From Campylobacterota bacterium (GTDB lineage Bacteria; Campylobacterota; Campylobacteria; Campylobacterales; Arcobacteraceae): a DNA stretch of 64,000 bases. Positions 36,154-63,219 of this stretch are shown here, in pieces (position 1 is the stretch's first letter; each line of letters starts with the position of its first letter). The notes beneath the pieces are model-generated. The model was not told the DNA's origin. It saw only the letters and a list, made by a program, of their open reading frames with translations, and ran no database searches. The translations under genes and the position numbers were made by a program. The stretch covers positions 1,993 through 65,992 of the forward strand of contig JBNJFB010000005.1 of NCBI GenBank assembly GCA_051746405.1. The letters run 5' to 3'.

Positions 36154-36555
36154 TTAAAATTTTAAAATAGACTCTTTAGTAATATCTACCATAGATTGAT
36201 ACTTACTATAATCGTTTATTTCTTCAAAACTCTTTGTTTGCATTGAAAAAATATAAAATGGTATATTAACCCCATAAAGTGAAACTAACATCTGCATCAA
36301 TATGAAGGGGCTTAGTTGATGGCTAATCCTATGTTCATAAGAGGGCAAAGGGACTGCTAATGTGTAAGATGAACCATAAGAAGCATCTACAAAAACTATT
36401 TTTGTTGCATCTTTTAACTCTAAACAGTGTTCAGGAAGTAGTTGATGAGTTTGGATACATTTAAACTTACAATTCTGACTGAAGCTTTTTACCACATCTA
36501 AACCAAATGCATCTTCTCCTCTTAATTCATTGCCCATTCCTACTAAATAAATCAT
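36154..36555 (-). CDS. hoxW: Hydrogenase maturation protease, HoxW-like
   Basis: GMGNELRGEDAFG, HQLLPE, VFVDAS, SHQLSP. Confidence 0.8.
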   Translation of the reverse strand: MIYLVGMGNELRGEDAFGLDVVKSFSQNCKFKCIQTHQLLPEHCLELKDATKIVFVDASYGSSYTLAVPLPSYEHRISHQLSPFILMQMLVSLYGVNIPFYIFSMQTKSFEEINDYSKYQSMVDITKESILKF

Positions 36556-36571
36556 TAGTTTTTATCTTTAT

Positions 36572-37540
36572 TTATCTTACCATCTGTGTTGCCATATCCA
36601 ATAAATTCTGTTTTATTTTATATTTTTGGCTATTTACATAATCTATTGTTACAAATTCAAACTTTGATTCTTTATAAACTATCACATAAGACTCTGTTTT
36701 ATTATCTATATTTAAAAGTTTGTCAATAGAATATGTTACAAATTCAACTGCCATAAGTCTATCATATACAGTGGGATTTCCACCTCTTTGTATATGACCT
36801 AATGTTGTAGCTCTTGTTTCAATTCCAACTTCATTTTCTAAGAAGTCAACTATATTTTCTGTTTGTTTTGTACCCTCTGCCACAAGGGCTACTATATATT
36901 GTCTACCATTTAATAACTCATTTTTTAGTTTAGTTTTCAGTGAATTTAAGTCATATTCAAGTTCTGGTATTATACAAATCTCTGCTCCACAAGTAATAGC
37001 TGAAACTAGTGCTAAATATCCACAATCTCTACCCATAGTCTCTATAACACAACCTCTTTTAAATGAAGCAGAGGTATCTCTAATAGCATCTGTTGCACCC
37101 CTAATTATATTTAAAGCTGTATCTACACCTAGACAATAGTCTGTAGCAAATATGTCATTATCAATTGTAGATGGTATTGCAATAAAAGGAATAGAAAAAT
37201 CTTTATGAAATTGATTTAAAGCTCGAAATGAACCATCACCTCCAAGAATAATAAGCCTACTTATTCCATATGATTTTAAATTTTCATAAGCTTGTTTTCT
37301 ATATTTATACTCATAAAATCGTTTGGATCTTGATGACCGAATCTTAGTCCCACCCTCATGCATTATTCCTGCTACATCTTCATATGTAGCTTTTTTAATA
37401 GTACCGTTTATTAATCCCTCTAATCCATCATAGATTAAGAATGGTTCTATTTTTAATGTAAAACAGTAATCAACAAACTGTTTTATAGCAGGGTTCATTC
37501 CAGCACAATCTCCACCTGAAGTAAGTATTGCTATTGCCAT
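36572..37540 (-). CDS. pfkA: ATP-dependent 6-phosphofructokinase
   Basis: TSGGD, GGDGS (ATP-type), TIDND, MGR, GHIQRGG. Confidence 0.95.
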   Translation of the reverse strand: MAIAILTSGGDCAGMNPAIKQFVDYCFTLKIEPFLIYDGLEGLINGTIKKATYEDVAGIMHEGGTKIRSSRSKRFYEYKYRKQAYENLKSYGISRLIILGGDGSFRALNQFHKDFSIPFIAIPSTIDNDIFATDYCLGVDTALNIIRGATDAIRDTSASFKRGCVIETMGRDCGYLALVSAITCGAEICIIPELEYDLNSLKTKLKNELLNGRQYIVALVAEGTKQTENIVDFLENEVGIETRATTLGHIQRGGNPTVYDRLMAVEFVTYSIDKLLNIDNKTESYVIVYKESKFEFVTIDYVNSQKYKIKQNLLDMATQMVR

Positions 37541-37541
37541 T

Positions 37542-38810
37542 TTAACTCTCTTTTTTCATCTTTTTTATAAGCTTTTTCTTCCCTAGTTCAACTCCTGGTT
37601 GATCATATGTATTTATGTCAAGCATTATACCTACAACTGAAGTTAATAGTTCGTAATAGTATATTAAACTTCCTAAGTTATCAATATTTAGATTATTTAT
37701 TGTAATCATATCACATGGGATTCCTGACTCACTTACACTCTCATATGTAGCCATACATTGGGCATTTATTAAGCTACTAAAACTATAATTATTACTGTAG
37801 TTTACCCCTGTAATATGGTCAAGTTTTATATCAGGTATTTTAATATCTGTTTGGAAATCATTTATTTTTAAAAAAGTTACTGTTTTATCCTCAGGACCTT
37901 GCATAACTAGCTGTAAAAAAGAGTGTTGGTCAACACTTCCTACTAATCCAATAGGAGTTAAACCCACTTTTTTAAATGTTTTATTAAGTTTTCCCAAACT
38001 CTCTCCCCATAACTGAACATACCACTTATTAAAGTTCTCAAAACTAGACCCATAAGAAAAAAGTATATTTATAGGTTTCTTTTTGGCTTTTTTAAAGTAA
38101 AAATATGCTTTTTCTAAAAGATGGTCATGTTTTCTATTAAAAAAATCTTTCTCAAACTTTGCTGCACCTAAAATAAGTTTTTCTATATCATATCCAATAA
38201 TAGAAAGTGGAACAAGTCCAACTGCACTTAATACAGAAAACCTTCCCCCAACGTTTTTAGGAATTGTAAAGGTTTTTATTTTATACTGTTGTGCAAATAA
38301 AAATAGTGGAGAGTTTTCATCTGTTATTGCAATAAGATTTTTTGTATCTTTTGTATGTAAATCTATTTTATATCTTTGAAGTACATACTTAAATATAGAA
38401 GTTGTTTCAATTGTTGTACCTGATTTGCTAATAACAATAAATATCGAATCTTCTTTATTAACATCTATTAAGTTTTCTTTTATATTGCTAGGGTCTCCAT
38501 TTTCAAGAAATATTAATTTTATTTCAGATTTCTTTTTAAATCCTAAAATAGCATCAATAGCTTTAGTACCTAAACTAGATCCACCTATTCCAATAACAAC
38601 AACATTTTTAATTTTATTATTTTGAAGAGAATTGTGATTCTTTTTATATTCTTCTATTTGATGAATTAGAGGTTTTGTATTATTTGGTAAAGAGTAGTAA
38701 CCAACTTTATTACTATCTTTCTCCTTTTTTAGTTTCTTAAAAGTACTTTCACAAAACTCAGTTGCTTTTTTACCAATTTTTGGGTTAAATTGTCTCTGGA
38801 ATTGAAGCAT
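37542..38810 (-). CDS. pgi: Glucose-6-phosphate isomerase
   Basis: GIGGSSLG, SKSGTT, GGRFSV, QLWGESLGK, HS, DQPGVELGK. Confidence 0.95.
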   Translation of the reverse strand: MLQFQRQFNPKIGKKATEFCESTFKKLKKEKDSNKVGYYSLPNNTKPLIHQIEEYKKNHNSLQNNKIKNVVVIGIGGSSLGTKAIDAILGFKKKSEIKLIFLENGDPSNIKENLIDVNKEDSIFIVISKSGTTIETTSIFKYVLQRYKIDLHTKDTKNLIAITDENSPLFLFAQQYKIKTFTIPKNVGGRFSVLSAVGLVPLSIIGYDIEKLILGAAKFEKDFFNRKHDHLLEKAYFYFKKAKKKPINILFSYGSSFENFNKWYVQLWGESLGKLNKTFKKVGLTPIGLVGSVDQHSFLQLVMQGPEDKTVTFLKINDFQTDIKIPDIKLDHITGVNYSNNYSFSSLINAQCMATYESVSESGIPCDMITINNLNIDNLGSLIYYYELLTSVVGIMLDINTYDQPGVELGKKKLIKKMKKES

Positions 38811-39805
38811 TATTTTGTTCCTACAAACTTTACCATATCAACTAATCTTGAGCTATATCCCCACTCATTATCATACCAAGCTAATACTTTTACAGTTTTA
38901 GCATCTACAACATTTGTCATATCAGGTACAAATGTAGAGCTATAAGTACTACCTACAAAATCACTAGATACTCTTTTGTCATTATCTATTTCAATTAAGC
39001 CTTTAAAATCTGCTTGACTTGCTTTTGTCATAGCATCATTTATTGCATCTACAGTAACCTCTTTATGTAAATTAACTGTTAAATCTACTACAGAAACATC
39101 AGCTGTAGGAACTCTCATAGCATAGCCATTTAATTTACCTGTTAAATTTGGCATAACTTTAGCAATAGCTTTTGCTGCACCTGTTGTAGTTGGTATCATA
39201 TTTACAGCAGCTGCTCTTGCTCTTCTTTTATCACTTTTATGTTTTACATCTAAGATATTTTGATCATTTGTGTAAGAATGAATAGTTGTCATAAGTCCAT
39301 TTTCAATCCCAAACTCTTCATCTAAAACTTTACAAATAGGTGCTAAACAGTTTGTAGTACAAGAAGCATTAGATATTATCTCTTCACCTTTATACTCATT
39401 AGTATTAATATTTAATACATAAGTGGGTGTGTCATCTTTAGCAGGTGCTGACATTACAACTTTTTCTACTCCATCTTTTAGATATGCCTTACATTTTTCA
39501 GTAGTTAAAAAAGCACCCGTACACTCAATAACAACTTTAGCTTTACATTTTCCAAAACCTAACTCTTTTGGATCTCTTGTGGAGAATATTTTTACATATT
39601 TTCCATTGATTTTCATAGTTGTATCATCAACAATTACAGCATCTACACCTTTATGAACTGAATCATATTTTAAAAGATATTGCAACATATCCATACTTGA
39701 TGTTGTATTAATTGCTACTAATTCTAAATCATCTCTACTTGTTACAATTTTTGCTACAATTACACCTATTCTTCCTGTTCCATTTATTGCTACTTTTAAT
39801 GCCAT
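38810..39805 (-). CDS. gapA: Type I glyceraldehyde-3-phosphate dehydrogenase
   Basis: GTGRIG, SNASCTTNCLAP, WYDNEWGYS. Confidence 0.96.
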   Translation of the reverse strand: MALKVAINGTGRIGVIVAKIVTSRDDLELVAINTTSSMDMLQYLLKYDSVHKGVDAVIVDDTTMKINGKYVKIFSTRDPKELGFGKCKAKVVIECTGAFLTTEKCKAYLKDGVEKVVMSAPAKDDTPTYVLNINTNEYKGEEIISNASCTTNCLAPICKVLDEEFGIENGLMTTIHSYTNDQNILDVKHKSDKRRARAAAVNMIPTTTGAAKAIAKVMPNLTGKLNGYAMRVPTADVSVVDLTVNLHKEVTVDAINDAMTKASQADFKGLIEIDNDKRVSSDFVGSTYSSTFVPDMTNVVDAKTVKVLAWYDNEWGYSSRLVDMVKFVGTK

Positions 39806-39829
39806 TTGTTATCCTTGATTTAATTGATT

Positions 39830-41473
39830 TTAAAACTTATACATTTTTTCATAATATTTATGTGCCATTGACCCTGAATCAAACTCATGTAAAACACTAT
39901 TCATGGAGTTTTCCATAATTCTAGCCCACTTTTTAGTATCTTCGTAATATATTGGTATTATCTCATTTTCTAGTCTATCCATCATCGATTTATTATCATT
40001 TTTATCTTGCATTTCTATACTTAAGCTTGCATCTGCATTTAAAATAGTAAAACTATTTTCACCATCATTACAAAATTCTGGATGCCAGCCATCTGCTATT
40101 GAGTAGTTAATAGCACCATTCATAGAAGCACTCATACCACTTGTTCCACTAGCTTCTCTAGTAATTCGTGGAGTATTAAGCCATATATCTGCACCCTGTT
40201 TTAGTAATCTTGACAATTGAAGTTCATACTCTATTAATACTGCTGTATTACTATACTGTTTTGTCAAATAGATAAGTTCATTAAATAGATTTATAGAGTT
40301 TGTATCAAAAGGATAAGGTTTACCAGCCCAAATAACTTGAATTGGTTGTTCCTTTCTAGTAATTAGATTTACAAATCTATCAAAGTCATATTTTAAAAGT
40401 CCTGGTCTTTTATACTCAGCAAATCTTCTTGCCCATACAATAGTAAGTACATCTGGGTCAAACATTTTACCTGTTTGATTTGCAACCTCATCAAAAAGTT
40501 TTCTTTTTAGATGTTTTTTTCTAGCAATTAATTCATAATCTTCATGTTCATCAAGGGCTCTAAGCATTGGTTTATCAGCCCAATATCTCTTATTTTGTGC
40601 ATTGGTAATATCAATAATATCACAAATACCATCATAACCTTTCCACATATCATTTGCCACATCTGCATGCATTCTAGATACGCCATTAGCAATTTTTGCT
40701 ACACGTAATGCAGAGACTGTAAGATTAAAATCATCATGCTTTTCATAATGAACTATTTGCTTAACCTCATCTAAAGAAATATTACTAAAAAAACCCATTT
40801 TATTTAAAAGATTTATATTATGTACTTCATTCCCAGCAGCTTCAGGGGTATGAGTAGTGAATCTAACCTTTTGCCTTAATAACTCCATATCTTTAATATT
40901 TTTATATAGTTCAAATACTAATGGTAAAGCATGTCCCTCATTCATATGATAAATATCAACTTTATGATTTAAAGCCTCAAGTACTTTAACTCCACCAATA
41001 CCTAAAACAATCTCCTGAGCAATTCTTGTCTCTTCATGTGCGTCATAAAGCTTATGTGTAATAGTTCTAGAAAGGTAATCATTCTCTTCTATATCTGTTG
41101 TAAGAAGTATTAAAGGAGCTGAACTAAATAGATGTGAAGGAACAATTTGTGCTTTTACAATGACAGGTTTATCATTTATCATAACAGTTACTTTTATATC
41201 TAAATCCTCTAAAAAGTAATAGTGTTTTCTTCTAAACTCAATTTTTAAGTTTCTATCTTCATCCCTTGCTTGGTCATAATAACCATAACTCCATAATAAA
41301 CCAATACCAACAACATTCTGTTTTAAGTCATAAGCACTTCTCATATGAGACCCAGCTAAAAACCCAAGACCACCTGAATATATTTTAAGTGCTTGGTGTA
41401 CTGCAAACTCCATTGAGAAGTAGGCTACTGCTTTACTATACTTTTTACTAAATTCATATTGTTCTATTTGCAT
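39830..41473 (-). CDS. glgP: Short (547 aa) alpha-glucan phosphorylase, GT35; PLP-lysine replaced by Ser
   Basis: YFSMEF, YSGGLGFLAG, NEGH, FTTHTP, RRFAEYKR, EASGTSGMSA. Confidence 0.88.
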   Translation of the reverse strand: MQIEQYEFSKKYSKAVAYFSMEFAVHQALKIYSGGLGFLAGSHMRSAYDLKQNVVGIGLLWSYGYYDQARDEDRNLKIEFRRKHYYFLEDLDIKVTVMINDKPVIVKAQIVPSHLFSSAPLILLTTDIEENDYLSRTITHKLYDAHEETRIAQEIVLGIGGVKVLEALNHKVDIYHMNEGHALPLVFELYKNIKDMELLRQKVRFTTHTPEAAGNEVHNINLLNKMGFFSNISLDEVKQIVHYEKHDDFNLTVSALRVAKIANGVSRMHADVANDMWKGYDGICDIIDITNAQNKRYWADKPMLRALDEHEDYELIARKKHLKRKLFDEVANQTGKMFDPDVLTIVWARRFAEYKRPGLLKYDFDRFVNLITRKEQPIQVIWAGKPYPFDTNSINLFNELIYLTKQYSNTAVLIEYELQLSRLLKQGADIWLNTPRITREASGTSGMSASMNGAINYSIADGWHPEFCNDGENSFTILNADASLSIEMQDKNDNKSMMDRLENEIIPIYYEDTKKWARIMENSMNSVLHEFDSGSMAHKYYEKMYKF

Positions 41474-41543
41474 ATGTCTCCTTTACTGTTTTAGAAAATA
41501 ATTATATATAAATCACATCACTATTTGGTTACAGACTATTATC

Positions 41544-43911: not shown

Positions 43912-43961
43912 TTTTCCTCTTATGTATTATTTTTTACATTGTAAATAATAAAAGATACAGT

Positions 43962-43975
43962 TTGATTACAATCAA
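43962..43975. promoter_or_regulatory. FNR-type Crp/Fnr-family binding site
   Basis: TTGAT-TACA-ATCAA, perfect consensus, in the 161-bp divergent fbaA/hoxE region. Confidence 0.65.
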
Positions 43976-44072
43976 ATTCAAAAAGTTATAATAATTAAAA
44001 AAAAGCAAAGTAACCATTATGTTACTATGAGTATATATAATTTAGTATATAAATAATAAAATGGAGTAGCCA

Positions 44073-44546
44073 ATGAATGCACAAGCAAATAATAGGTATA
44101 AATTAGTTGAAAAAACTATGAAGAGGTTAGGCTTTGAAAAAAGTTCATTGATAGAGACTCTTCATACGGCTCAAGAAACATTTGGTTATCTTGAAAATGA
44201 AACACTTAAATACATAGCTAAAAGACTAAAAATCCCCTACTCAAAAGTTTATGGAGTAGCTACTTTTTATCACTTCTTTAGACTAAAACCAAAAGGTAAG
44301 CATACAGCTGTTGTATGTACAGGAACAGCTTGCTATATAAAGGGTGCTGATAAAATTCTAAAAGATTTAGAAGATAGATTTGGAATAAAAGCTGGGGAAA
44401 CAACAAAAGACTCTCTCATTTCAGTTTTAACTGCACGTTGTGTTGGTTCATGTTCTATTGCACCTATAGTTATTTATGATAATAAATCAGAAGGTAATCT
44501 TACTTTAGAAGATGCTAAGAAAAATGTTGAGGAACTAATATGTTAA
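44073..44546 (+). CDS. hoxE: Bidirectional hydrogenase diaphorase subunit HoxE (NuoE-like)
   Basis: LIETLH..QETFGYL, YGVATFYHFF, CTGTAC and CVGSC [2Fe-2S] ligands. Confidence 0.88.
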   Translation: MNAQANNRYKLVEKTMKRLGFEKSSLIETLHTAQETFGYLENETLKYIAKRLKIPYSKVYGVATFYHFFRLKPKGKHTAVVCTGTACYIKGADKILKDLEDRFGIKAGETTKDSLISVLTARCVGSCSIAPIVIYDNKSEGNLTLEDAKKNVEELIC

Positions 44547-46159: not shown

Positions 46160-46871
46160 GCAAAAAGTCAGAGTAAAAACATTTAAAATTGATGATATAG
46201 ATGTTACAGGAAGATCAGATAGTTCAATACTAGAAGTTGCAAATGAACACAACATAAATATACCAACTCTATGTTATATGGAAGGGTTAAGCTGTGTGGG
46301 AGCATGTAGAATGTGTCTTGTAGAGGTTCGTGGTAGTTCTAAACTTATTCCTGCATGCACAGCAAAAATAAAAGAAGGTATGCAGGTTATTACAAATTCA
46401 ACCAAAGTAGAATCCCACAGAAAAATGGTACTTTCAATGATATTTGCTGAACGAACTCATACATGTAGTGTATGTGTATCAAATGGTCATTGCGAATTAC
46501 AAAATCAAGCAATAGAGCAAAACCTTGAACATAGTTTAGTTCCATATATCCATAAAAGTTTTGAAATGGATGCTTCCCATAAATTTTTCAACTATGACCC
46601 AAACAGATGTATACTTTGTACTAGATGTGTAAGAGTTTGTGATGAAGTTGAAGGGGCTCATGCTTTAGATATTATGGGTCGTGGAATAAATGCAAAAATC
46701 ATACATGATATGGATGAACCATGGAGTGAATCAACCAGCTGTACTAGCTGTGGAAAATGTGTGCAGGTGTGTCCAACAGGTGCATTATTTGAAAAAGGTG
46801 TAAGTGCAACAGAAATGATAAAGAAAAAAGATATAGTAACAAACCTCATTAAAATAAGGGCAAATAGATGA
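46152..46871 (+). CDS. hoxU: Bidirectional hydrogenase subunit HoxU
   Basis: IPTLC, CRMC, HxCxxCxxxGxCELQ, CILCTRC, CTSCGKCVQVCP. Confidence 0.9.
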   Translation: MIKQKVRVKTFKIDDIDVTGRSDSSILEVANEHNINIPTLCYMEGLSCVGACRMCLVEVRGSSKLIPACTAKIKEGMQVITNSTKVESHRKMVLSMIFAERTHTCSVCVSNGHCELQNQAIEQNLEHSLVPYIHKSFEMDASHKFFNYDPNRCILCTRCVRVCDEVEGAHALDIMGRGINAKIIHDMDEPWSESTSCTSCGKCVQVCPTGALFEKGVSATEMIKKKDIVTNLIKIRANR

Positions 46872-47407
46872 AAAAAATAAGAGTTGGTACAGTTTGGTTA
46901 GATGGTTGTTCAGGATGTCATATGTCTTTTTTAGATATGGATGAGAGAATTATTGAGCTATCAGAGTATATGGATGTTGTATATAGTCCCTATGTAGATA
47001 CAAAAGAGATTCCATGTGATGTGGATCTATTTATAGTAGAAGGAGCTTTAAGTACCGACCATGATATTAAAATAATTAAAGAAATAAGAAAAAACTCTAA
47101 AAATATTTTAGCCTTAGGAGACTGTGCGGTAACTGGAAATATCTCAGCTATGAAAAATCTTTTCGGAACAGAAGCTGTTTTACAAAAAGGGTATTTTGAT
47201 TTAGCTGATTACAATGAGAGTGGAAAATATCCATCACAAGTAGTACCAAAACTATTAGATAAAGTAATTCCACTAAATGAAGCAATAGATGTGGATTTTT
47301 TTGTGCCAGGATGTCCTACACCTGCAGATGCAATTTATGAAGTTATTAAAGCAATTATAAAAAACAAAGAGATAAAAATAAGTGAATATACAAGGTTTGG
47401 AAAGTAA
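46868..47407 (+). CDS. hoxY: [NiFe]-hydrogenase small subunit HoxY
   Basis: WLDGCSGCHMS, GDCA, PGCP; no Tat signal. Confidence 0.92.
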   Translation: MKKIRVGTVWLDGCSGCHMSFLDMDERIIELSEYMDVVYSPYVDTKEIPCDVDLFIVEGALSTDHDIKIIKEIRKNSKNILALGDCAVTGNISAMKNLFGTEAVLQKGYFDLADYNESGKYPSQVVPKLLDKVIPLNEAIDVDFFVPGCPTPADAIYEVIKAIIKNKEIKISEYTRFGK

Positions 47408-47408
47408 C

Positions 47409-48839: not shown

Positions 48840-48841
48840 AA

Positions 48842-48867
48842 GGGAGTGTTAAAAAACTCCCCCTTTT
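48842..48867. terminator. Intrinsic terminator between convergent hoxH and pgk
   Basis: GGGAGT-N8-ACTCCC followed by cc-TTTT. Confidence 0.6.
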
Positions 48868-48879
48868 AAAGTGAGTTTT

Positions 48880-50082: not shown

Positions 50083-50158
50083 TTTGTACCTTTTTAATAA
50101 TTTATTAATATTATCAAAAATTAAGTACAAAATGATTACAAAATTTTATCAAAAGTAT

Positions 50159-52885: not shown

Positions 52886-54972
52886 TATATGTACCAATTC
52901 TTTAAATCTAAATTTTCTATATCTATTATAAAACTATTATATAATGGGAAAGATTGAACTTTATTCGCCCCTTCAAATATAGAAAACTTAAAATCTATTT
53001 TTTTTCCTACTGTTAACTGTTTTGATGAAAACTCTATTTGTATACTATTTTCCAATGAAAAAACATTACAAGAGATATCTTCTTGAATAATATTTTGCTT
53101 ACCTTTTGTAACAAATATTTCAAACTCCTTATCATTTAAAGTAACTATTAATGATATTTTTTTAAAAAGCTTTGCAAAATTTCCATCAAAAAAGAGATAA
53201 AATTTCCCTACATTATAACCATATTTAATATTTTTTACTATATTTTTAGAGCTATCCATAACTGAAAACTCTTTTTTTATATCAATAAAACCACTATTTA
53301 TCCACTCAAAATAATTACTTTTATCACAAGCTAGGTTTTGATAAATAAAACTTAAAGGTTTTGTATGAAAACCATTATTTGAAGTGTCATCAACAATTGG
53401 TCTTAATATTTCTAAAGGTGTTGGAAGCTTTAGATACTCATAAATATTTATAAGGTGCGTTCTAAAAAATGTATCAAACTCTTTGGACTGAACAGTAAAA
53501 TGGTCATCTCCATACCACCAAAACCAATCACTTGCCAATGCCACCATAAATTCATTTTCAATAAGCTGTAGAGTTTTTTTATCTAAAGAGTTTTTATATT
53601 TATCAAAATCCCTTTTTGTAATACTTAAAAGCTCCCAAGCTCTATTTTTTTGTTTACTTCCTATCCAAATATCAAAGTTTCCATTTATCCAACTTCCACT
53701 ATGTATATGTGATAATGTTTCGCATACTATTTGTTTATCATGAGTTACTTCATCCATTGTTACTGTTTCTATCCAAGAAGTACTTTCAAATAAGCTATAT
53801 AGTTCATTAAAAAACTCAAATGCATTATTTGGAAAAAACTCCCAAGCATTTTCTCCATCAAGTATAACATTAACTAATGGCATAAAATCACATGAGTTAT
53901 ATATCTCTTGCAAATGCTCTACAAATCTTTTTGCAGCTACTTTTGGTTCTATATTACTATACTCAAAACCTATTAAGTCACTTAAGTAATGGTCTCTAAA
54001 TCTCACATCAATAACACCATTTTGTGTTTGTAACTGATAATTTTTATAGATATCTTTTTTCTCTCTTTTGTTAGGTGATTTAAAAAGAGTCTCTTCATCA
54101 CTACAAAACCATTGCAAACCATTTTTTGTAAATAATTCAGCAGTATCCTGACTTACACTACCCTCTGCAGGCCAAAAACCCTTTGTTTTCTTTCCAAATC
54201 TATTTTCAAAAAATTGTATTGCATCTTCTGTATTTTTTATACCAAACTCCTTAAAAGAAGCTAACTTTTCTGGCATAACCACATCATGTTTTGCTTTTTT
54301 TGCATTTGAAAAGTCAAGTAATAATGGTGTGATTGGATGAAAATAAGGAGTGGTACAAACTGTTATTTTATTCTCACTATCTAACTTTTTATACAACTGT
54401 ATTATAGATGGTAAAAATGCAACTAGTTCATTTATAAGTTTTATTTTCTCTTCTTGTGAAAAATTATCTCCTTTTGCTAAAAGGAACTTAACCTCTTCAT
54501 TGGAAGTTCTTAAATATACACCACACCATGATAAAAGAAATAATACCTGTGTATCTAAAAGCTCACTAGAACTAAAATCTTGTATAGTTTTATGTGTATT
54601 GTATTTTAAATAAAGCTCATAATATCTTTTAAGAGGTTTTATCATATTTTTTTCATTTGATAAAAAAAGATAACTTTGAAGATACTCTTTATCATGAGTA
54701 GTAAGGTTTACTATATCTTTTTTTAAAGTCTCAAGTAGTTTATCATTTGCACTATTATCTATATATGACTCTATTTGACGCACTAATGAGGGAACTAGGT
54801 TAAAAGTAGTTTTAAGATTAGGAAATAAACTACCATACCAAGGTATATCATAATAGTCTTTTATTGAGTGTAAAAATACCCAAGGAAACAGTGTTTTATC
54901 TGACTTATCATCTTTATAATATGGCTGATGCATATGCCATAAAAATGCTAGTTTTAATTTTTTTTCACTCAT
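52885..54972 (-). CDS. GH57 amylopullulanase-like glycoside hydrolase
   Basis: WHMHQP, GFWPAEG nucleophile, ILDGENAWE acid/base, ASDWFWW. Confidence 0.88.
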   Translation of the reverse strand: MSEKKLKLAFLWHMHQPYYKDDKSDKTLFPWVFLHSIKDYYDIPWYGSLFPNLKTTFNLVPSLVRQIESYIDNSANDKLLETLKKDIVNLTTHDKEYLQSYLFLSNEKNMIKPLKRYYELYLKYNTHKTIQDFSSSELLDTQVLFLLSWCGVYLRTSNEEVKFLLAKGDNFSQEEKIKLINELVAFLPSIIQLYKKLDSENKITVCTTPYFHPITPLLLDFSNAKKAKHDVVMPEKLASFKEFGIKNTEDAIQFFENRFGKKTKGFWPAEGSVSQDTAELFTKNGLQWFCSDEETLFKSPNKREKKDIYKNYQLQTQNGVIDVRFRDHYLSDLIGFEYSNIEPKVAAKRFVEHLQEIYNSCDFMPLVNVILDGENAWEFFPNNAFEFFNELYSLFESTSWIETVTMDEVTHDKQIVCETLSHIHSGSWINGNFDIWIGSKQKNRAWELLSITKRDFDKYKNSLDKKTLQLIENEFMVALASDWFWWYGDDHFTVQSKEFDTFFRTHLINIYEYLKLPTPLEILRPIVDDTSNNGFHTKPLSFIYQNLACDKSNYFEWINSGFIDIKKEFSVMDSSKNIVKNIKYGYNVGKFYLFFDGNFAKLFKKISLIVTLNDKEFEIFVTKGKQNIIQEDISCNVFSLENSIQIEFSSKQLTVGKKIDFKFSIFEGANKVQSFPLYNSFIIDIENLDLKNWYI

Positions 54973-58457: not shown

Positions 58458-60050
58458 TTATCTCTCCTTTTTTGTGCAGTATATTCTATAATCACAAAAA
58501 CTAAATAGGGAGTTTTTAGACTCAATCTCTTCTAAAAACTCATAATCTATATCTTCATTAATCATTTCTAATAACATTTGAAAATTACTTATATGCTCTT
58601 TTGTTCTTTTAATACTATATTCAGTAGCTGTTTGAGTTGTCATCAAAAATGCCCAATCACTACTTTGTGCTAGCAATAACTCTCTGTGCATTTGATTTAA
58701 TAACCTTGTATTATTAGAACTTGTACCATCTTTATATCTATTTGCTAACTCTTCCATAGTATCAGCCATGTTATGCAAATGTCTATATATCCAAGAGTTT
58801 CCTTCATTTAACCATACATCATAGTACCCCTTATCTCCCCATGATGAAGCAGATGGACTTATTACTTGATTTTGTGAATACATAGAGAGATACTCAAGAG
58901 GTGTTACAGCTTTAAAAACTTTATGCTTATCAATCTCTTTAAAAATATTGTAGATAAACTCAGGACCCTCAAACCACCAATGACCAAAAAGTTCAGCATC
59001 ATATGGAGACACAACCATAGGAGTTCTGTTCATATTTGATTTTAAAAACTCAAATTGCTTATCTCTTTTAAAGTGAAAATCTTTTGCATGTTCCACTGTT
59101 TTTTGTGAAGCAATTAATGGATTATATACCTCTTTATAATCAGTTTCCCCTGTTACTTTATGATATTTAAATCCAGTAAACTCTCTATTTCCACTAGGGT
59201 CAATATGCTCTTTTATATAATCAAACTCTAAGTCATACCCAATATCTCTATAAAAATCTCTATAGTTGAGATCTCCTGGATAGCCCTCTTTTGAACTCCA
59301 TACTTGCTTTGCAGAGTGAGGGTCTCTAGCAAAAGCTGCAACTTCATTTGTGGTATATACAGGTGCATAAACACCATTTGTAGATGTGGGATTGCCATAT
59401 ACTAAGCCATGTGAATCCATAAAGAAAAATTCAATTTCATTATCTTTTAAAATCTCATCAAGCCCTTCATAATATGCACACTCAGGGAGCCATATTCCTT
59501 TTGGAGCTTTTTTAAAATGCCTTTTATGAGACTCTACAGCTACTTCAATTTGAACTTCAACTGCTCTTTTATTTGGCTTTAAAAGAGGAAGAAAGCCATG
59601 GGTTGCAGCACAAGTTATAACCTCTATTTTTCTAAGGTCATTAAAATATCTATATCCATTTAAAATATTCCTATCTAAAACATTTATAAAAAAATCTTTA
59701 GTTTTTGTATATAAGTCTTGATAAAATAGAGCTAAATCCTTATAGTTTATATCATTTGCCGTTCTTTTAACCTCTTTTTTTGCTAAAAGAAGCTGATTTT
59801 TAAGATGATTTTCATATTTTTTCATAAGATGTTCATCATCTAACATCTGAGCTAGGGGAGGAGTTATAGAAATAGTAAGCCTAAAATCTATATTTTCAGA
59901 CTCAAGTTGTTTAAGTCTGCTTAAAAGTGGTATATAACATTCAGTAATAGCCTCAAATAGCCAATGCTCTTCTAGAAAATAGTCATATTTTGGATGTTTT
60001 ACAAACGGTAAATGTGAATGAAGTACTGGTACCCAATATCCTTTTATCAT
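58458..60050 (-). CDS. GH57 1,4-alpha-glucan branching enzyme (DUF1957)
   Basis: HSHLP, EEHWLFEA, GIWLPEC, PYDAELFGHWWFEG, AQSSDWAF. Confidence 0.92.
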   Translation of the reverse strand: MIKGYWVPVLHSHLPFVKHPKYDYFLEEHWLFEAITECYIPLLSRLKQLESENIDFRLTISITPPLAQMLDDEHLMKKYENHLKNQLLLAKKEVKRTANDINYKDLALFYQDLYTKTKDFFINVLDRNILNGYRYFNDLRKIEVITCAATHGFLPLLKPNKRAVEVQIEVAVESHKRHFKKAPKGIWLPECAYYEGLDEILKDNEIEFFFMDSHGLVYGNPTSTNGVYAPVYTTNEVAAFARDPHSAKQVWSSKEGYPGDLNYRDFYRDIGYDLEFDYIKEHIDPSGNREFTGFKYHKVTGETDYKEVYNPLIASQKTVEHAKDFHFKRDKQFEFLKSNMNRTPMVVSPYDAELFGHWWFEGPEFIYNIFKEIDKHKVFKAVTPLEYLSMYSQNQVISPSASSWGDKGYYDVWLNEGNSWIYRHLHNMADTMEELANRYKDGTSSNNTRLLNQMHRELLLAQSSDWAFLMTTQTATEYSIKRTKEHISNFQMLLEMINEDIDYEFLEEIESKNSLFSFCDYRIYCTKKER

Positions 60051-60577
60051 AGTTTTTCTCCTAAATCTTTAGAGCTTAAATACTCACAAGATATATTACT
60101 ATACTCTTGTATTCTTTTAGTTTTTTTTAGATAAGTTGCATAAATAATATCTTTATTAATAATTTTTATATTATCTGATTCCATAAGATTTTTAATTATC
60201 ATACCGTCTTTATAAACAGCTATAACTTTTATCTCTTTTAAAGATGAATTTGTAGTATCTATATTATAAAAATACTCACCATATAAATATTCACACTTTA
60301 TATTAGCAAGTAAATTCTGTTTTTGATCAACTATATGAAAAAAAATATCATCTAAACTTATACTATTTTTATCTAAAAACTCCTCTGTAAACTCCCAATA
60401 AAAATATGATCTACTTTTATTTACAGGTAGCATTACCAATTTATTTTTATAATATCTTGTTGGAATAATATAATCTTTTTCTTCAACTACATTATCTGCT
60501 ACAATCGTATCAATAGAGTGTATACTACTAGTAAAGTTTCCTGTAGTTAAACTTTCATTTATTAAATTCTCTTTCAT
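60047..60577 (-). CDS. DUF4912-like protein
   Basis: LVMLPV...YFYWE motif; directly upstream of the GH57 branching enzyme; start at ATG 60577 for RBS spacing. Confidence 0.65.
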   Translation of the reverse strand: MKENLINESLTTGNFTSSIHSIDTIVADNVVEEKDYIIPTRYYKNKLVMLPVNKSRSYFYWEFTEEFLDKNSISLDDIFFHIVDQKQNLLANIKCEYLYGEYFYNIDTTNSSLKEIKVIAVYKDGMIIKNLMESDNIKIINKDIIYATYLKKTKRIQEYSNISCEYLSSKDLGEKL

Positions 60578-60723
60578 ATTTAGCAATCTCCTTATATCAT
60601 AAATTATATCGCTAAATAGTTACAAATCAGTTATATAGAAAAAAATTTAAGGTTAAGGCTAATATGTAACTAAAATGTATCTAAAGGTAAGTAAAATAGA
60701 GTAACTTTTAATTAGGATAGATA

Positions 60724-63219
60724 ATGAAAGCAATAATTCTAGCAGGTGGTTTTGGAACAAGAATCCAACCACTTACAAACTCACTTCCAAAACCAATGTT
60801 ACCAATACTCAATCGTCCAATGATGGAACATATTATTTTAAAACTACGTGATGAGTTAGATATAAAAGAGATGGCAATTTTACTTTACTTTAAACCTGAA
60901 ATTATTAGAGAATATTTCGGTGATGGCAGTAGATTTGGTGTAAAATTAACTTATATAGAACCCGATGATGACTATGGAACAGCAGGTGCTGTTTCATTTG
61001 CAAGGGATTTTTTAGATGATACGTTTATCATAGTAAGTGGTGATTTAGTAACAAATTTCAATTTTAAAGCCATAGAGAAATTTCACAAAAAGAAAAAATC
61101 ACAATTTACAATTACGCTAACTAGTGTTGAAGACCCTCTACAGTTTGGTGTAGTTATTGCAGATGAAAATAATAGAATAGATAAGTTTTTAGAAAAACCA
61201 AGCTGGGGAGAAGTATTTAGTGATACTATAAATACCGGCATTTATATAATAGAACCTGAAATATTAAACTTTATACCACATGGAGAAGATTTTGATTTTG
61301 CAAAAGACCTTTTTCCTACCCTTATGCAAAATAATATCCCATTATGGGGCTATAGTGAAAAAGGATACTGGAGAGATGTGGGAAATCCTCAAAGTTATAG
61401 AGAAGTATATGAAGATATTTTTAAAGGAGATATAACTCTACCTATAAAAGGTGAAGCAAAAAAGATTGATAATGGACTAGTTTACATATCAAAAGGAGTT
61501 GAGTTACCTGAAAAGTTAAGAGTAAAAGGTGTAGTTGTTTTAGATGAAAATGTTAAAATAAGTGAAGGCGTTACATTAGAAAATGCTTCTATTGGCAAAA
61601 ACTGTAAAATAAAAAAACATTCTGAAGTAACAAACACTATTTTATGGAATGATGTAACAATAGGCTCAAAATCTAAAATCAATAACTCTGTTATATGTAA
61701 CAACTCTCAAATAAAAGATGAAGTAAAAGCATCCTTAGGTGTAATAATAGCTGAAGGTTGTATAATATTTAAAAAAGTAAGTTTTGTAAAAGATATTATT
61801 ATATGGCCTAATAAAGTTATAGATGCTTCCTCAATAGTAAGTAATAATGTAATATGGGGTACAAAATATAAGTCTACTATTTTTGAAGAGGGAAAAGTAA
61901 CAGGAAGAACAAATATAGAACTTTCTGTACAAATGAGTACTAAACTTGCTGAATCTTTTGGTTCTATACTCCCTGTTGGTAGTAAAGTTTATATGTCAAG
62001 GGATTATCATAAAAGTTCAAGAATGATTAAGCGTGCTTTTCTTTCTGGACTTTTAGCAACTGGAATAAATGTTGATGACCTTTTTGATGTTCCCTCTAAT
62101 GTAATGAGACACTGTTTGTCTAATAATGATAATGTTATTGCAGGAGTTCATTTTAGACAATCAGTTGTTGATCCTTCAAATACTGAGATTATTCTTTATA
62201 CAAACGAAGGATTATCTATTGATACAAAACTATCAAAATCCATTGAGAGAATATTTTTTAGAGAGAATTTTAGAAGAGTTAACTATACTCAAATTGGTGA
62301 AATCACTGAAGAAATAGGAACAAAAAACAGATATGTAGATGCAGTTTTAGAAAAATTAAATCTTAATAGTTTTAAAAACAATGAGCTAAAAGTAGCTACA
62401 GATATTATGTTTGGTTCCACATCTGATATATATCCTAAACTTATGAATGAGTTAGCTATTGAAAATGTTGTATTAAATGCCTACAAAGATGATAAAAATC
62501 TATCAGGTGTAGCAAATATGATAGTAAAATCTCAAAAATATATGGAAAATATTGTAAAAGCAATGCAGCTAGACTGTGGTTTCTTAATCTATCCAAATGG
62601 TCAAAAACTTCAACTAATTGATGATAAAGGTGAACTTGTATATGACTATAAAACACTTCTTGTAATACTAACAATGTTAAATGAACAAACAAATAAAAAG
62701 CTAAAAGTTTTACTACCTGCTTGGGGTCCTGATTTTATAGAGTTCAAAAATCTACAAATAACTTATGAAAATTTATCTAAACTCAAAGCAAGTGAACTAA
62801 TGGAGTTTGATCTTATTGCTACAACTGATGGGCACTATTCATTTTGTGATTTTGGTCTAAATCGTGATGCCATTTTTTCAAGTTTTAAAATTCTTGAACT
62901 CATGCAAAAATCAGATATTAAAATATCAAAAATTGTAAAACAACTTCCAGAGTTTGTATTTAGAGGCGAAAATGTAGCTTGTCCTAGTGAATTTAAAGGA
63001 AAAATGATGAGAAAATTCCTTGAAGATGGAAAAGATAAAGAGACTAGTTCTATAGATGGTGTTAAAACTTGGATAAGTGAAGATGAATGGCTACTTATGG
63101 TTCCAGATGAACATGCAGACTATTTAAACATATATATTCAAGCACAAGATGACAAAAGTGCAAGTAAAATATTTTGGAGCTATCAAGATAAAATAGAAAA
63201 ATGGATTAGTGAAAAATAA
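60724..63219 (+). CDS. Sugar-phosphate nucleotidyltransferase + hexapeptide (LbH) + degenerate PGM/PMM fusion
   Basis: ILAGGFGTRIQPLT..PKP, VSGD, FLEKP, YWRDVG; LbH repeats; PGM fold with YPNGQ in place of DxDxD. Confidence 0.85.
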   Translation: MKAIILAGGFGTRIQPLTNSLPKPMLPILNRPMMEHIILKLRDELDIKEMAILLYFKPEIIREYFGDGSRFGVKLTYIEPDDDYGTAGAVSFARDFLDDTFIIVSGDLVTNFNFKAIEKFHKKKKSQFTITLTSVEDPLQFGVVIADENNRIDKFLEKPSWGEVFSDTINTGIYIIEPEILNFIPHGEDFDFAKDLFPTLMQNNIPLWGYSEKGYWRDVGNPQSYREVYEDIFKGDITLPIKGEAKKIDNGLVYISKGVELPEKLRVKGVVVLDENVKISEGVTLENASIGKNCKIKKHSEVTNTILWNDVTIGSKSKINNSVICNNSQIKDEVKASLGVIIAEGCIIFKKVSFVKDIIIWPNKVIDASSIVSNNVIWGTKYKSTIFEEGKVTGRTNIELSVQMSTKLAESFGSILPVGSKVYMSRDYHKSSRMIKRAFLSGLLATGINVDDLFDVPSNVMRHCLSNNDNVIAGVHFRQSVVDPSNTEIILYTNEGLSIDTKLSKSIERIFFRENFRRVNYTQIGEITEEIGTKNRYVDAVLEKLNLNSFKNNELKVATDIMFGSTSDIYPKLMNELAIENVVLNAYKDDKNLSGVANMIVKSQKYMENIVKAMQLDCGFLIYPNGQKLQLIDDKGELVYDYKTLLVILTMLNEQTNKKLKVLLPAWGPDFIEFKNLQITYENLSKLKASELMEFDLIATTDGHYSFCDFGLNRDAIFSSFKILELMQKSDIKISKIVKQLPEFVFRGENVACPSEFKGKMMRKFLEDGKDKETSSIDGVKTWISEDEWLLMVPDEHADYLNIYIQAQDDKSASKIFWSYQDKIEKWISEK

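What the first reader, a model, noticed from the sequence alone, without database searches (positions are those of the whole stretch)
36154..63219. Contiguous ~27-kb glycogen + EMP glycolysis + bidirectional Hox hydrogenase cluster
Seen: 21 consecutive genes cover glycogen synthesis and breakdown, a ROK kinase, pgi, ATP-type pfkA, fbaA, gapA, pgk, eno and hoxEFUYH plus hoxW, with no unrelated gene among them. Established: Campylobacter and Helicobacter typically lack 6-phosphofructokinase and use these steps gluconeogenically. In cyanobacteria, Hox reoxidises NAD(P)H/ferredoxin during dark anoxic glycogen fermentation. Inference: a portable storage-and-fermentation module that stores carbon as glycogen, then ferments it under electron-acceptor limitation and vents electrons as H2, or runs in reverse using H2-derived NADH. 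tpi, gpm, pyk and hyp genes are absent here and must come from elsewhere. I cannot confirm whether this linkage has been described.
Basis: partly seen in the sequence, partly recalled or inferred. Interest (0 to 1): 0.85.

Follow-up and report, generated by a model that had tools for sequence, protein, structure and literature searches.

The report
Glycogen, glycolysis and Hox hydrogenase cluster
A freshwater Campylobacterota bacterium keeps its glycogen-storage genes, most of its sugar-splitting genes and a reversible NAD-linked hydrogenase in one 27-kb block; this hints, without proving it, that it can burn stored glycogen and release the spare electrons as hydrogen gas.

Summary
They are hoxW, pfkA (ATP type), pgi, gapA, glgP, eno, fbaA, hoxEFUYH, pgk, fbp, a ROK kinase, a GalT-like gene, two GH57 glucanases, glgA, a GH57 branching enzyme, DUF4912, and a nucleotidyltransferase-phosphoglucomutase fusion.

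Most of the block is not unique. Among 44 metagenome loci of at least 8 kb holding a pfkA relative, 26 carry glycogen or other glycolysis genes beside pfkA, often with pyruvate kinase. None has hox within 10 kb.

Hox lies next to glycogen genes in six of about 29 Campylobacterota hox loci, in at least two independent layouts. The window merges the two patterns.

Two features are special to the window. The protease gene hoxW, which directly follows hoxH in every relative that holds it, here ends the fbaA-to-pfkA operon. A promoter motif conserved in relatives (TGTAATCAAAYNG) lies 45-47 nt upstream of fbaA, glgP, GH57b and pgk, and the fbaA copy is in the region shared with hoxE.

"Portable module" is not supported: there are no mobility genes, no tRNA and no compositional break. 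The glycolytic genes look like the organism's ordinary copies.

Glycogen fermentation with Hox as a redox valve is the best reading, but it is inferred, not shown.

The parts
34684..36138 (-). DASS-family Na+-coupled anion symporter. It starts 15 bp after hoxW with no terminator between them, so it may be co-transcribed. It is not conserved next to the cluster in relatives.
   Evidence: TIGR00785 258.6 bits against cut-off 198.6; junction sequence; no tblastn hit in L001-L141
36154..36555 (-). hoxW-like hydrogenase maturation endopeptidase, last gene of the fbaA-to-pfkA operon. It is separated from hoxH.
   Evidence: TIGR00072 37 bits, below its cut-off. Full-length alignment to the gene that follows hoxH in 13 relatives, 35-46% identity, with conserved GNxLRGED, (F/V)DA and SH motifs
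36572..37540 (-). pfkA, ATP-dependent 6-phosphofructokinase
   Evidence: NF002872 320 bits against cut-off 253; GGDGS and PSTIDND motifs
37542..38810 (-). pgi, glucose-6-phosphate isomerase
   Evidence: NF003016 561 bits against cut-off 487
38810..39805 (-). gapA, type I glyceraldehyde-3-phosphate dehydrogenase
   Evidence: TIGR01534 409 bits against cut-off 367; best PDB hit 7bew at 415 bits, next 348
39830..41473 (-). glgP, short-type alpha-glucan phosphorylase
   Evidence: TIGR02094 434 bits against cut-off 192
41521..41533 (-). Promoter motif copy TGTAACCAAATAG (1 mismatch), 47 nt upstream of the glgP start codon
41544..42821 (-). eno, enolase
   Evidence: TIGR01060 638 bits
42844..43911 (-). 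fbaA, class II fructose-bisphosphate aldolase; first gene of the catabolic operon
   Evidence: NF006628 567 bits; best PDB hit 3qm3
43912..44072 (.). 161-bp divergent control region between fbaA and hoxE. It holds the exact motif TGTAATCAAACTG (43958-43970, minus strand), 46 nt upstream of the fbaA ATG.
   Evidence: The block ACA(G/A)TTTGATTACA is the longest invariant stretch in an alignment with five relatives.
44073..48839 (+). hoxE (44073-44546), hoxF (44540-46159), hoxU (46152-46871), hoxY (46868-47407), hoxH (47382-48839): cyanobacterial-type bidirectional [NiFe]-hydrogenase
   Evidence: HoxE NF005747 228 bits against cut-off 224; HoxU NF005745 338 against 333. HoxH motifs RTCGICPVSH and DPCLSCSTH plus a 25-residue tail. 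54-56% identity to cyanobacterial HoxH.
48836..48869 (.). G+C-rich hairpin between the convergent hoxH and pgk genes; likely a bidirectional terminator
48880..50082 (-). pgk, phosphoglycerate kinase. The start is probably ATG 50082 or 50061 rather than TTG 50130.
50128..50140 (-). Promoter motif copy TGTAATCATTTTG (2 mismatches), 45 nt upstream of pgk ATG 50082
   Evidence: NF006784 247 bits, below the equivalog cut-off but full length
51082..51897 (-). ROK-family sugar kinase (probable glucokinase)
   Evidence: PF00480 136 bits
51905..52897 (-). GalT-like (HIT superfamily) hexose-1-phosphate nucleotidyltransferase. Its role is unknown. It sits between GH57 and glgA wherever relatives hold it.
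   Evidence: TIGR00209 96.7 bits against cut-off 102.1; Pfam; synteny
52885..54972 (-). GH57 enzyme, amylopullulanase-like (probable debranching or degrading enzyme)
   Evidence: PF03065 176 bits; 318 bits to PDB 8zyi, the entry cited in the GH57 amylopullulanase structure paper PMC12106739
54979..56970 (-). GH57 4-alpha-glucanotransferase/alpha-amylase type
   Evidence: PF03065, PF09094 and PF09095
57018..57030 (-). Promoter motif copy TGTAATTAAACTG (1 mismatch), 47 nt upstream of the GH57b start codon
57032..58456 (-). glgA, GT5 glycogen synthase (start probably ATG 58456)
   Evidence: TIGR02095 478 bits against cut-off 328
58458..60050 (-). GH57 glycogen branching enzyme
   Evidence: PF03065 plus PF09210 BE_C; NF041133 319 bits
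60047..60586 (-). DUF4912 protein; a recurring neighbour of the GH57 branching enzyme in relatives
   Evidence: PF16258, weak; synteny in L005-7, L019, L081
60724..63219 (+). Fusion of sugar-1-phosphate nucleotidyltransferase (1-352) and phosphoglucomutase/phosphomannomutase (386-821). It stands in for GlgC plus Pgm.
   Evidence: Pfam; NCBIfam; follows pfkA in 20 relatives

Best explanation
The block is a lineage-typical Campylobacterota gene cluster for glycogen metabolism and Embden-Meyerhof glycolysis, with a cyanobacterial-type HoxEFUYH hydrogenase operon sitting inside it. It has four transcription units.

(A) fbaA-eno-glgP-gapA-pgi-pfkA-hoxW (perhaps also the symporter) carries the two steps specific to breakdown, phosphorylase and ATP-PFK.

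(B) hoxEFUYH is transcribed divergently from A, out of a shared 161-bp control region.

(C) DUF4912-glgB(GH57)-glgA-GH57-GH57-galT-ROK-fbp-pgk carries the steps specific to synthesis: synthase, branching enzyme and FBPase.

(D) is the nucleotidyltransferase-PGM fusion.

Proposed working (inferred). When carbon and energy are in excess, units C and D build glycogen. When electron acceptors run out, unit A turns glycogen into triose phosphates and PEP and yields ATP. The NADH from GapA, together with reduced ferredoxin or flavodoxin from pyruvate oxidation encoded elsewhere, is reoxidised by Hox, which releases H2. Making HoxH maturation depend on hoxW transcribed with the catabolic operon ties active hydrogenase to glycolytic flux.

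Shown: gene identities, operon layout, recurrence of the layouts in relatives, and the shared promoter motif.

Inferred: the direction of flux, H2 evolution, and co-regulation of hox.
For: - Gene identities.
- pfkA is clustered with glycogen or EMP genes in 26 of 44 related loci of at least 8 kb. That includes 25 of the 27 whose PfkA is at least 60% identical.
- Relatives' clusters also hold pyruvate kinase, a second PK-like gene, pgm, ADP-forming acetyl-CoA synthetase and NAD(P)H flavoproteins. This is a catabolic, ATP-yielding gene set.
- Hox lies next to glycogen genes in L002, L005, L006, L007, L027 and L019. These loci fall in two HoxH subclades with different junctions, so there were at least two independent events.
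- hoxW directly follows hoxH in every relative that holds it, but in the window it ends the pfkA operon.
- HoxH keeps a C-terminal extension, so it needs the protease.
- The motif TGTAATCAAAYNG was derived from relatives only. All four of its intergenic hits in the window are inside the cluster, on the coding strand, 45-47 nt from start codons.
- In relatives, 17 of 31 motif hits lie in the 6% of DNA that is intergenic, upstream of fbaA, gapA and pfkA.
- Cyanobacterial Hox is known to release H2 from glycogen catabolism in the dark (abstracts of PMC9335942 and PMC9195167). It reacts with both NAD(P)H and ferredoxin (PMC7363133).
- Fermentative H2 production already exists in Epsilonproteobacteria (PMC6242987).
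Against: - There are no expression or physiological data. No RNA run holds this sequence.
- fbp and pgk sit in the cluster, and GapA may accept both NAD and NADP, so the block serves gluconeogenesis equally well.
- None of the 44 pfkA loci of at least 8 kb has hox within 10 kb. Most hox loci have no glycogen genes within the flank held. The Hox link is therefore facultative.
- Outside the window the motif is only weakly associated with hoxE: an exact 10-nt core in L008 and one-mismatch cores in L003 and L005.
- tpi, gpm, pyk, por and hyp genes are not in the window, so pathway completeness is unverified.
- H2 from NADH alone is thermodynamically poor unless the H2 partial pressure is very low.
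Confidence: 0.55

Rival explanations
1. Hox works mainly in the uptake direction. H2 is oxidised in the cytoplasm to make NAD(P)H, which drives gluconeogenesis (Pgk, GapA, FbaA, Fbp) and glycogen synthesis during lithoautotrophic growth. On this reading the cluster is a 'store carbon when H2 is plentiful' unit.
For: fbp, pgk, glgA, the branching enzyme and the NDP-sugar fusion are all in the block. In L005-7, L027 and the window, the hox 3' end abuts the operon that ends with fbp. In L019, hox follows the glgA/glgB operon on the same strand. Roalkvam et al. proposed NADH/NADPH supply for Hox in Arcobacter anaerophilus, which grows on H2 (PMC4584990).
Against: hoxW and the shared promoter region are tied to the operon holding the breakdown-specific genes glgP and pfkA, not to the synthesis operon. 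Campylobacterota usually oxidise H2 with membrane-bound group 1 enzymes. The HoxE-containing type is best known as an electron valve in cyanobacteria.
Confidence: 0.25
2. The adjacency has no functional meaning. The hox operon landed beside the glycogen/glycolysis cluster through neutral rearrangements, and hoxW was separated from hoxH by an inversion that happened to be tolerated.
For: Inverting 36572-48839 restores a canonical hoxEFUYH-hoxW operon (inference). Most hox loci, and all pfkA loci, lack the combined layout. Gene order in this region is fluid across relatives.
Against: A roughly 15-kb glycogen cluster should fall within 10 kb of hox in about 1-2% of 2.5-Mb genomes by chance (my estimate). 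It does so in six of about 29 loci and in two independent layouts. After the rearrangement, hoxW has intact conserved motifs, a tight 16-bp junction to pfkA, and no pseudogenisation.
Confidence: 0.15
3. The whole 27 kb is a horizontally acquired, self-contained 'portable' storage-and-fermentation island carrying extra copies of the glycolytic genes.
For: Hox has a patchy distribution, and hox genes are plasmid-borne in Acaryochloris and Cupriavidus. PFK is unusual in Campylobacter, Helicobacter and Sulfurospirillum (PMC11406935).
Against: There are no integrase, transposase, tRNA or boundary repeats. GC3 is uniform. There is no plasmid match. The flanks are core genes such as aroB, mtaB, mutS2 and dapE. 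GapA, Pgk and FbaA are nearest to the Campylobacter-type structures. The cluster lacks tpi, gpm and pyk. The same genes are clustered at 76-90% identity in many relatives.
Confidence: 0.05

Closest known systems
Cyanobacterial HoxEFUYH bidirectional hydrogenase acting as the electron valve in dark glycogen fermentation (Synechocystis, Aphanothece, Lyngbya)
   Same: The same five-subunit enzyme type, including HoxE. HoxH is 54-56% identical, with the same metal-binding motifs and C-terminal processing. The proposed physiology is the same: glycogen to NAD(P)H and ferredoxin to H2.
   Different: In cyanobacteria the hox genes are not embedded among glycolysis and glycogen genes. Only sporadic single neighbours appear in the 30 or so cyanobacterial loci. 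Here they are physically merged, and hoxW is transcribed with pfkA. The host is a non-photosynthetic Campylobacterota.
hox genes of Arcobacter (Halarcobacter) anaerophilus IR-1 (Roalkvam et al. 2015, PMC4584990)
   Same: The first report of HoxEFUYH in Epsilonproteobacteria. It belongs to the same family of organisms as the window's best matches.
   Different: That paper treats hox as unique to one strain and links it to H2 use and NADH balance. It mentions neither glycogen nor PFK. Here hox is found in about 29 Campylobacterota species-level genomes and is linked to glycogen in a subset of them.
Fermentative H2 production by Sulfurospirillum (Kruse et al. 2018, PMC6242987)
   Same: A precedent that Epsilonproteobacteria can produce H2 by fermentation.
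   Different: The substrate is external pyruvate rather than stored glycogen. From memory, the enzyme is a membrane-bound group 4 Hyf-like hydrogenase. Sulfurospirillum lacks PFK (PMC11406935).
GH57-based glycogen/maltodextrin gene sets of Thermococcales and Thermus/Thermotoga
   Same: GH57 branching enzyme with a BE_C domain, GH57 4-alpha-glucanotransferase, GH57 amylopullulanase-like enzyme, short phosphorylase, and an archaeal-style nucleotidyltransferase/phosphomutase.
   Different: The host is mesophilic, low-GC and bacterial. The set is fused with a near-complete EMP gene set and a hydrogenase. All NCBIfam equivalog scores are far below their cut-offs, so these are distant family members.
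Electron-bifurcating NiFe hydrogenase HydABCSL of Acetomicrobium mobile (PMC8880783)
   Same: HoxH's best solved relative is HydL (7t2r_D, 509 bits, against 376 for the Hydrogenophilus NAD-reducing enzyme). HoxF aligns well with HydB (576 bits) and keeps an N-terminal [2Fe-2S] domain.
   Different: HoxF ends where the HydB C-terminal domain with two [4Fe-4S] clusters begins. HoxU is the short 239-aa form. The features that define bifurcation (PMC9304861) are therefore missing.

Membership tests
Group 3d HoxEFUYH-type bidirectional [NiFe]-hydrogenase | Five structural genes hoxE-F-U-Y-H in one operon, with a NuoE/F/G-like diaphorase part | tested here: met
   HoxE NF005747 228.2 bits against cut-off 224; HoxU NF005745 338.3 against 333; HoxF nuoF-family 471 bits; HoxY and HoxH hit group 3 small and large subunit models
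Group 3d HoxEFUYH-type bidirectional [NiFe]-hydrogenase | Large-subunit Ni-Fe ligand motifs RxCGxCxxxH (N-terminal) and DPCxxCxxH (C-terminal) | tested here: met
   RTCGICPVSH and DPCLSCSTH are present in the translation
Group 3d HoxEFUYH-type bidirectional [NiFe]-hydrogenase | C-terminal extension of HoxH removed by a dedicated endopeptidase (HoxW) | tested here: met
   A 25-residue tail follows the His. The hoxW-like gene keeps its conserved acidic, Asp and His motifs, although it scores below the TIGR00072 cut-off.
Group 3d HoxEFUYH-type bidirectional [NiFe]-hydrogenase | Reversible NAD(P)H- or ferredoxin-linked H2 turnover; hyp maturation genes present in the genome | not testable with these tools
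   There are no hyp genes in the 64-kb window. The rest of the genome is not available, and no activity data exist.
Bfu-type electron-bifurcating hydrogenase (HydABCSL/HydABC) | The HydB/HoxF homologue carries a C-terminal domain with two [4Fe-4S] clusters (B3, B4), in addition to B2 and B5 | tested here: not met
   HoxF (539 aa) aligns to residues 5-526 of the 597-599-aa HydB chains and then ends. Criteria are taken from PMC8880783 and PMC9304861.
ATP-dependent 6-phosphofructokinase (PfkA) | Gly at position 104 (GGDGS) and no Lys at position 124, as opposed to Asp104/Lys124 in PPi-dependent enzymes; catalytic Asp in TIDND | tested here: met
   GGDGS and PSTIDND are seen in the HMMER alignment. 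NF002872 scores 320 bits against cut-off 253. The residue rule itself is from my own knowledge.
Classical GlgC-GlgA glycogen pathway | GT5 ADP-glucose-type glycogen synthase, a branching enzyme and a phosphorylase | tested here: met
   TIGR02095 478 bits against cut-off 328. GH57 plus BE_C domains. TIGR02094 434 bits against cut-off 192.
Classical GlgC-GlgA glycogen pathway | Stand-alone ADP-glucose pyrophosphorylase GlgC | tested here: not met
   The only candidate is the 831-aa nucleotidyltransferase-PGM fusion. glgC models score 123-127 bits against cut-offs of 425-470.
Mobile genomic island ('portable module') | Integrase, transposase or conjugation genes; tRNA or repeat boundaries; compositional break | tested here: not met
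   No such genes. No tRNA. Uniform GC3. No plasmid match.

The most novel reading that the evidence does not exclude
A widespread group of sulfur- and hydrogen-oxidising Campylobacterota runs a dedicated regulon, marked by the operator-like element TGTAATCAAAYNG. The regulon switches between glycogen storage and ATP-PFK glycolysis. In the lineages where Hox has been wired into it, the cells become net H2 producers on stored carbon when electron acceptors vanish. Organisms counted as H2 sinks in stratified lakes and sediments would then be intermittent H2 sources.
Probability: 0.3. Interest if true: 0.7.

Novelty: new variant of a known kind. Interest (0 to 1): 0.55.

Why it matters
Campylobacterota are usually treated as respiratory H2 and sulfur oxidisers that lack PFK and use the glycolytic enzymes only for gluconeogenesis.

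A conserved cluster joins ATP-PFK, pyruvate kinase (in relatives) and a full GH57 glycogen system. In some lineages it also holds a cyanobacterial-type bidirectional hydrogenase. This points to an internal carbon and redox buffer that would let these bacteria survive swings between oxic, sulfidic and acceptor-free conditions.

It also gives a concrete, testable regulon: one motif in front of four promoters. Cultivable relatives, such as Halarcobacter with a hox-glycogen junction, are available for testing it.

I found no paper describing the cluster or the Hox-glycogen linkage in this phylum in nine full-text searches. That is absence of evidence, not proof of novelty.

Tried and rejected
- The look-up of encoding contigs found no exact copies of PfkA, GapA or HoxY.
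- Sequencing runs: only one lake-water metagenome holds about 21% of the words and there are no RNA runs. Its short, low-depth contigs said nothing about gene order.
- FNR box: TTGATTACAATCAA at 43962-43975 is a perfect FNR-type palindrome. In relatives, however, the conserved element is TTTGATTACA paired with TGTAATCAAA, with starts 31 nt apart. The FNR-like symmetry in the window is probably a by-product, so I dropped that reading.
- A GTAAC-N6-GTTAC palindrome at 44010-44025 occurs once in the window and is not significant.
- No inverted repeats mark the ends of the inferred 36572-48839 inversion.
- The motif is not enriched window-wide at one mismatch: 18 hits against 19.3 expected. The signal lies only in where the hits sit.
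- The Rfam and tRNA scans found nothing.
- Cyanobacterial hox loci show no consistent glycolysis or glycogen neighbours.
- I could not confirm from the literature that PDB entries 7bew, 3q3v and 3qm3 are Campylobacter jejuni proteins. That attribution is from memory.

Full report
**What is there**

The window is low-GC DNA (24-34% GC in 2-kb windows). Its HoxH is most like that of Arcobacteraceae genomes assembled from metagenomes (83-84% identity). Near-identical DNA occurs only in one lake-water metagenome.

From 36154 to 63219 every ORF of at least 100 aa belongs to one of three themes.

- Minus strand: hoxW-like protease, pfkA, pgi, gapA, alpha-glucan phosphorylase, eno, fbaA.
- Plus strand: hoxE, hoxF, hoxU, hoxY, hoxH.
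- Minus strand: pgk, class 1 fbp, ROK kinase, GalT-like gene, a GH57 enzyme resembling amylopullulanase (318 bits to PDB 8zyi, the entry cited in the GH57 amylopullulanase structure paper PMC12106739), a GH57 4-alpha-glucanotransferase type, glgA, a GH57 branching enzyme, DUF4912.
- Plus strand: an 831-aa fusion of a sugar-1-phosphate nucleotidyltransferase with a phosphoglucomutase.

Several sequence details check out.

- PfkA has GGDGS and PSTIDND, so it has Gly104 and no Lys124. This is the ATP-type signature (the rule is from my own knowledge).
- HoxH has both Ni-Fe ligand motifs and a 25-residue C-terminal tail.
- The hoxW-like protein aligns end to end with the gene that follows hoxH in relatives and keeps the conserved acidic, Asp and His positions.
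- tpi, gpm, pyk and hyp are absent from the whole window.

**Operon layout**

Gaps between genes are 0-80 bp within four units.

- Unit A: fbaA-eno-glgP-gapA-pgi-pfkA-hoxW. A DASS symporter starts 15 bp further on with no terminator between.
- Unit B: hoxEFUYH, divergent from A across 161 bp. It ends at a G+C-rich hairpin shared with the convergent pgk.
- Unit C: DUF4912-glgB-glgA-GH57-GH57-galT-ROK-fbp-pgk.
- Unit D: the fusion gene, divergent from C.

Unit A holds the two breakdown-specific steps, phosphorylase and PFK. Unit C holds the synthesis-specific ones: synthase, branching enzyme and FBPase.

**Relatives: the glycogen-glycolysis cluster is a clade feature**

A metagenome scan with PfkA returned 80 loci. 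Of the 44 that are at least 8 kb long, 20 have glycogen genes next to pfkA, 24 have other glycolytic genes, and 18 have both. Of the 27 whose PfkA is at least 60% identical, 25 carry such genes. Of the 17 below 60%, only one does.

Typical layouts are:

- pgm fbp | Tll0287 pyk eno fbaA | gapA (pgi) pfkA PK-like fusion GH57 galT glgA ROK (L064-L069)
- GH57 | gapA pfkA fusion GH57 galT glgA glgP pgk (L074, L085, L089)

Pfam and NCBIfam show that the extra genes are pyruvate kinase, a second long pyruvate-kinase-like protein, phosphoglucomutase, an ADP-forming acetyl-CoA synthetase (L094, L095, L098), and pyridine-nucleotide-disulfide flavoproteins of the CoA-disulfide-reductase/NADH-oxidase kind (L072, L094, L102).

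That is the gene content of a catabolic, ATP-yielding pathway with its own NAD(P)H-handling enzymes. None of these loci has hox within 10 kb.

**Relatives: the Hox operon**

A scan of one genome per species with HoxH gave about 29 Campylobacterota loci, labelled Arcobacteraceae, Halarcobacter, Sulfurimonas and others. It also gave cyanobacteria at 54-56% identity and a few Proteobacteria and Myxococcota at 59-60%.

In every Campylobacterota locus that holds the gene, hoxW directly follows hoxH on the same strand.

Glycogen genes lie next to hox in six loci.

- L005, L006, L007: hoxEFUYHW convergent with fbp-glgB-DUF4912-pgm-glgP-glgA-galT-GH57.
- L027: fbp, then the contig ends.
- L002: fbp, 3 kb away.
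- L019, a Sulfurimonas genome: galT-glgA-ROK-glgP-DUF4912-glgB sits immediately upstream of hoxE on the same strand.

A neighbour-joining tree of HoxH makes the Campylobacterota sequences one clade with an Arcobacteraceae-like and a Sulfurimonas-like branch. The first five loci and the window are scattered through the first branch, and L019 stands alone in the second. The hox-glycogen junction therefore arose at least twice.

By my estimate, chance adjacency within 10 kb would be about 1-2% per genome.

No relative has glycolytic genes beside hox. The window is the only sampled case where both patterns are merged.

**How the window's layout may have arisen (inference)**

Inverting 36572-48839 would put hoxW back behind hoxH and leave fbaA-to-pfkA convergent with pgk. 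No repeats mark the breakpoints.

The window's HoxW is somewhat more divergent than the others. It is 35-46% identical to relatives, which are 35-77% identical to one another, mostly 40-58%. It is intact.

**A shared promoter element**

In L063-L069 the fbaA|gapA divergent region holds an inverted pair, TTTGATTACA and TGTAATCAAA, with starts 31 nt apart. L062 has one copy in front of pfkA.

In an alignment with the window's fbaA|hoxE region, ACA(G/A)TTTGATTACA is the longest invariant block.

I derived the pattern TGTAATCAAAYNG from the relatives only. It hits the window 23 times at up to two mismatches.

- Only four of those hits are intergenic.
- All four are in the cluster's 759 bp of intergenic DNA. 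None is in the other 2217 bp.
- All four are on the strand of the gene downstream.
- All four lie 45-47 nt from the start codon: fbaA (0 mismatches), glgP (1), GH57b (1), pgk (2).

In the relatives, 17 of 31 hits at up to one mismatch lie in the 6% of DNA that is intergenic.

This is good evidence for one regulator acting on several promoters of the cluster. The fbaA copy lies 102 nt upstream of the hoxE ATG, so hox may share it.

Outside the window the link to hox is weak. There is an exact 10-nt core upstream of hoxE in L008 and one-mismatch cores in L003 and L005. In all, 4 hits were seen against 0.66 expected in 16 upstream regions.

The window's perfect FNR-like palindrome is this half-site plus ATCAAA and is not conserved, so I do not rely on it.

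**Is it portable?**

I found no evidence for it.

- The flanks are ordinary chromosomal genes such as thiI, dapE, mutS2, mog, bioV, mtaB and aroB.
- There are no tRNA, Rfam or mobility genes.
- GC3 is 0.12-0.23 throughout.
- There is no plasmid match.
- GapA, Pgk and FbaA are closest to PDB entries 7bew (415 bits, next 348), 3q3v (420, next 370) and 3qm3 (530, next 527). I recall these as Campylobacter jejuni enzymes but could not verify that.
- Enolase is closest to 1iyx.

The glycolytic genes are therefore probably the organism's own, perhaps only, copies. The variable element is the hox operon, not the block as a whole.

**What kind of hydrogenase?**

It is the HoxE-containing, cyanobacterial type. 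HoxH's nearest solved relative is the large subunit of the electron-bifurcating Acetomicrobium mobile enzyme.

HoxF stops where that enzyme's HydB begins its extra domain with two [4Fe-4S] clusters, and HoxU is the short form. The defining bifurcation features are therefore absent.

The cyanobacterial enzyme nevertheless reacts with both ferredoxin and NAD(P)H (PMC7363133). That would ease the poor thermodynamics of making H2 from NADH.

**Verdict**

The best reading is a carbon and redox buffer. Glycogen is built when resources allow. It is broken down through an ATP-PFK pathway when acceptors fail, with Hox removing excess reducing power as H2.

The reverse reading, with H2 feeding gluconeogenesis, cannot be excluded because the block also carries fbp.

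Known pieces are Hox in one Arcobacter (PMC4584990), GH57 glycogen genes noted in a pan-genome (PMC11406935), fermentative H2 in Sulfurospirillum (PMC6242987), and Hox-glycogen fermentation in cyanobacteria. My searches found no paper describing:

- the conserved glycogen-EMP cluster with PFK in this phylum;
- its repeated junction with hox;
- the relocation of hoxW into the glycolytic operon;
- the shared motif.

Noticed in passing
window 32783-34570 (-): A protein with three PAS domains and an HD-GYP-type domain lies just downstream of the symporter. Its PAS domains score 163 bits to the YtvA blue-light (LOV) family, below the cut-off of 250. Partial homologues lie near the hox or glycolysis clusters in L001 (47% identity), L067 (50%, 96 aa) and L094 (36%). 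It could be a light, redox or oxygen sensor acting on c-di-GMP, or the matches could simply reflect how common PAS proteins are.
   Followed up: partly
L002 546-5503; L003 190-2562; L008 1460-6518: Directly upstream of hoxE in three Arcobacteraceae-type loci lies another multi-gene set that includes a 362-367-aa protein 23-26% identical to HoxH. This looks like a second, different hydrogenase-like complex next to hox.
   Followed up: no
L016, L019, L021 and L022, hoxF: In several Sulfurimonas-type loci the HoxF ORF is only 443-452 aa, against 537-539 aa elsewhere. It matches from about residue 100 of the window's HoxF, so the N-terminal [2Fe-2S] thioredoxin-like domain seems to be missing or separately encoded.
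   Followed up: no
L021 4075-9295: Four minus-strand genes (286, 411, 557 and 419 aa) are inserted between hoxU and hoxY. They split the hox operon in this genome.
   Followed up: no
L065 10980-12788; L094 13955-15928; also L062-L069, L083, L102: A long (602-657 aa) pyruvate-kinase-like protein (NF011314, about 500 bits, below the cut-off of 642) follows pfkA in many relatives, in addition to a normal 473-aa pyruvate kinase next to eno. The window has neither.
   Followed up: partly
L064 557-569; L065 712-724; L073 3165-3177: The motif variant TGTAACCAAATAG is identical to the copy upstream of glgP in the window. In L064 and L065 it lies just upstream of the ORF that precedes pgm and fbp; in L065 that ORF is a PstS-family phosphate-binding protein. 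This hints that the regulon also reaches phosphate uptake.
   Followed up: no
window 5752-7248 (-): A 498-aa protein with leucine-rich repeats gives weak hits to internalin and SspH2-type LRR regions. It has no Pfam family at E below 1e-4, and two ORFs of 106-116 aa overlap it on the opposite strand.
   Followed up: no
window 11638-13392: A small redox-stress group: an NAD(P)H nitroreductase, a flavodoxin-like-fold quinone reductase, and a divergently transcribed MarR regulator of the Campylobacter RrpB type.
   Followed up: no
window 16008-17312 (-) and 63262-63936 (-): An AAA ATPase with a DUF234 domain, and a PD-(D/E)XK (PDDEXK_9) protein. Both are of unknown role. The second marks the right-hand edge of the cluster.
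   Followed up: no
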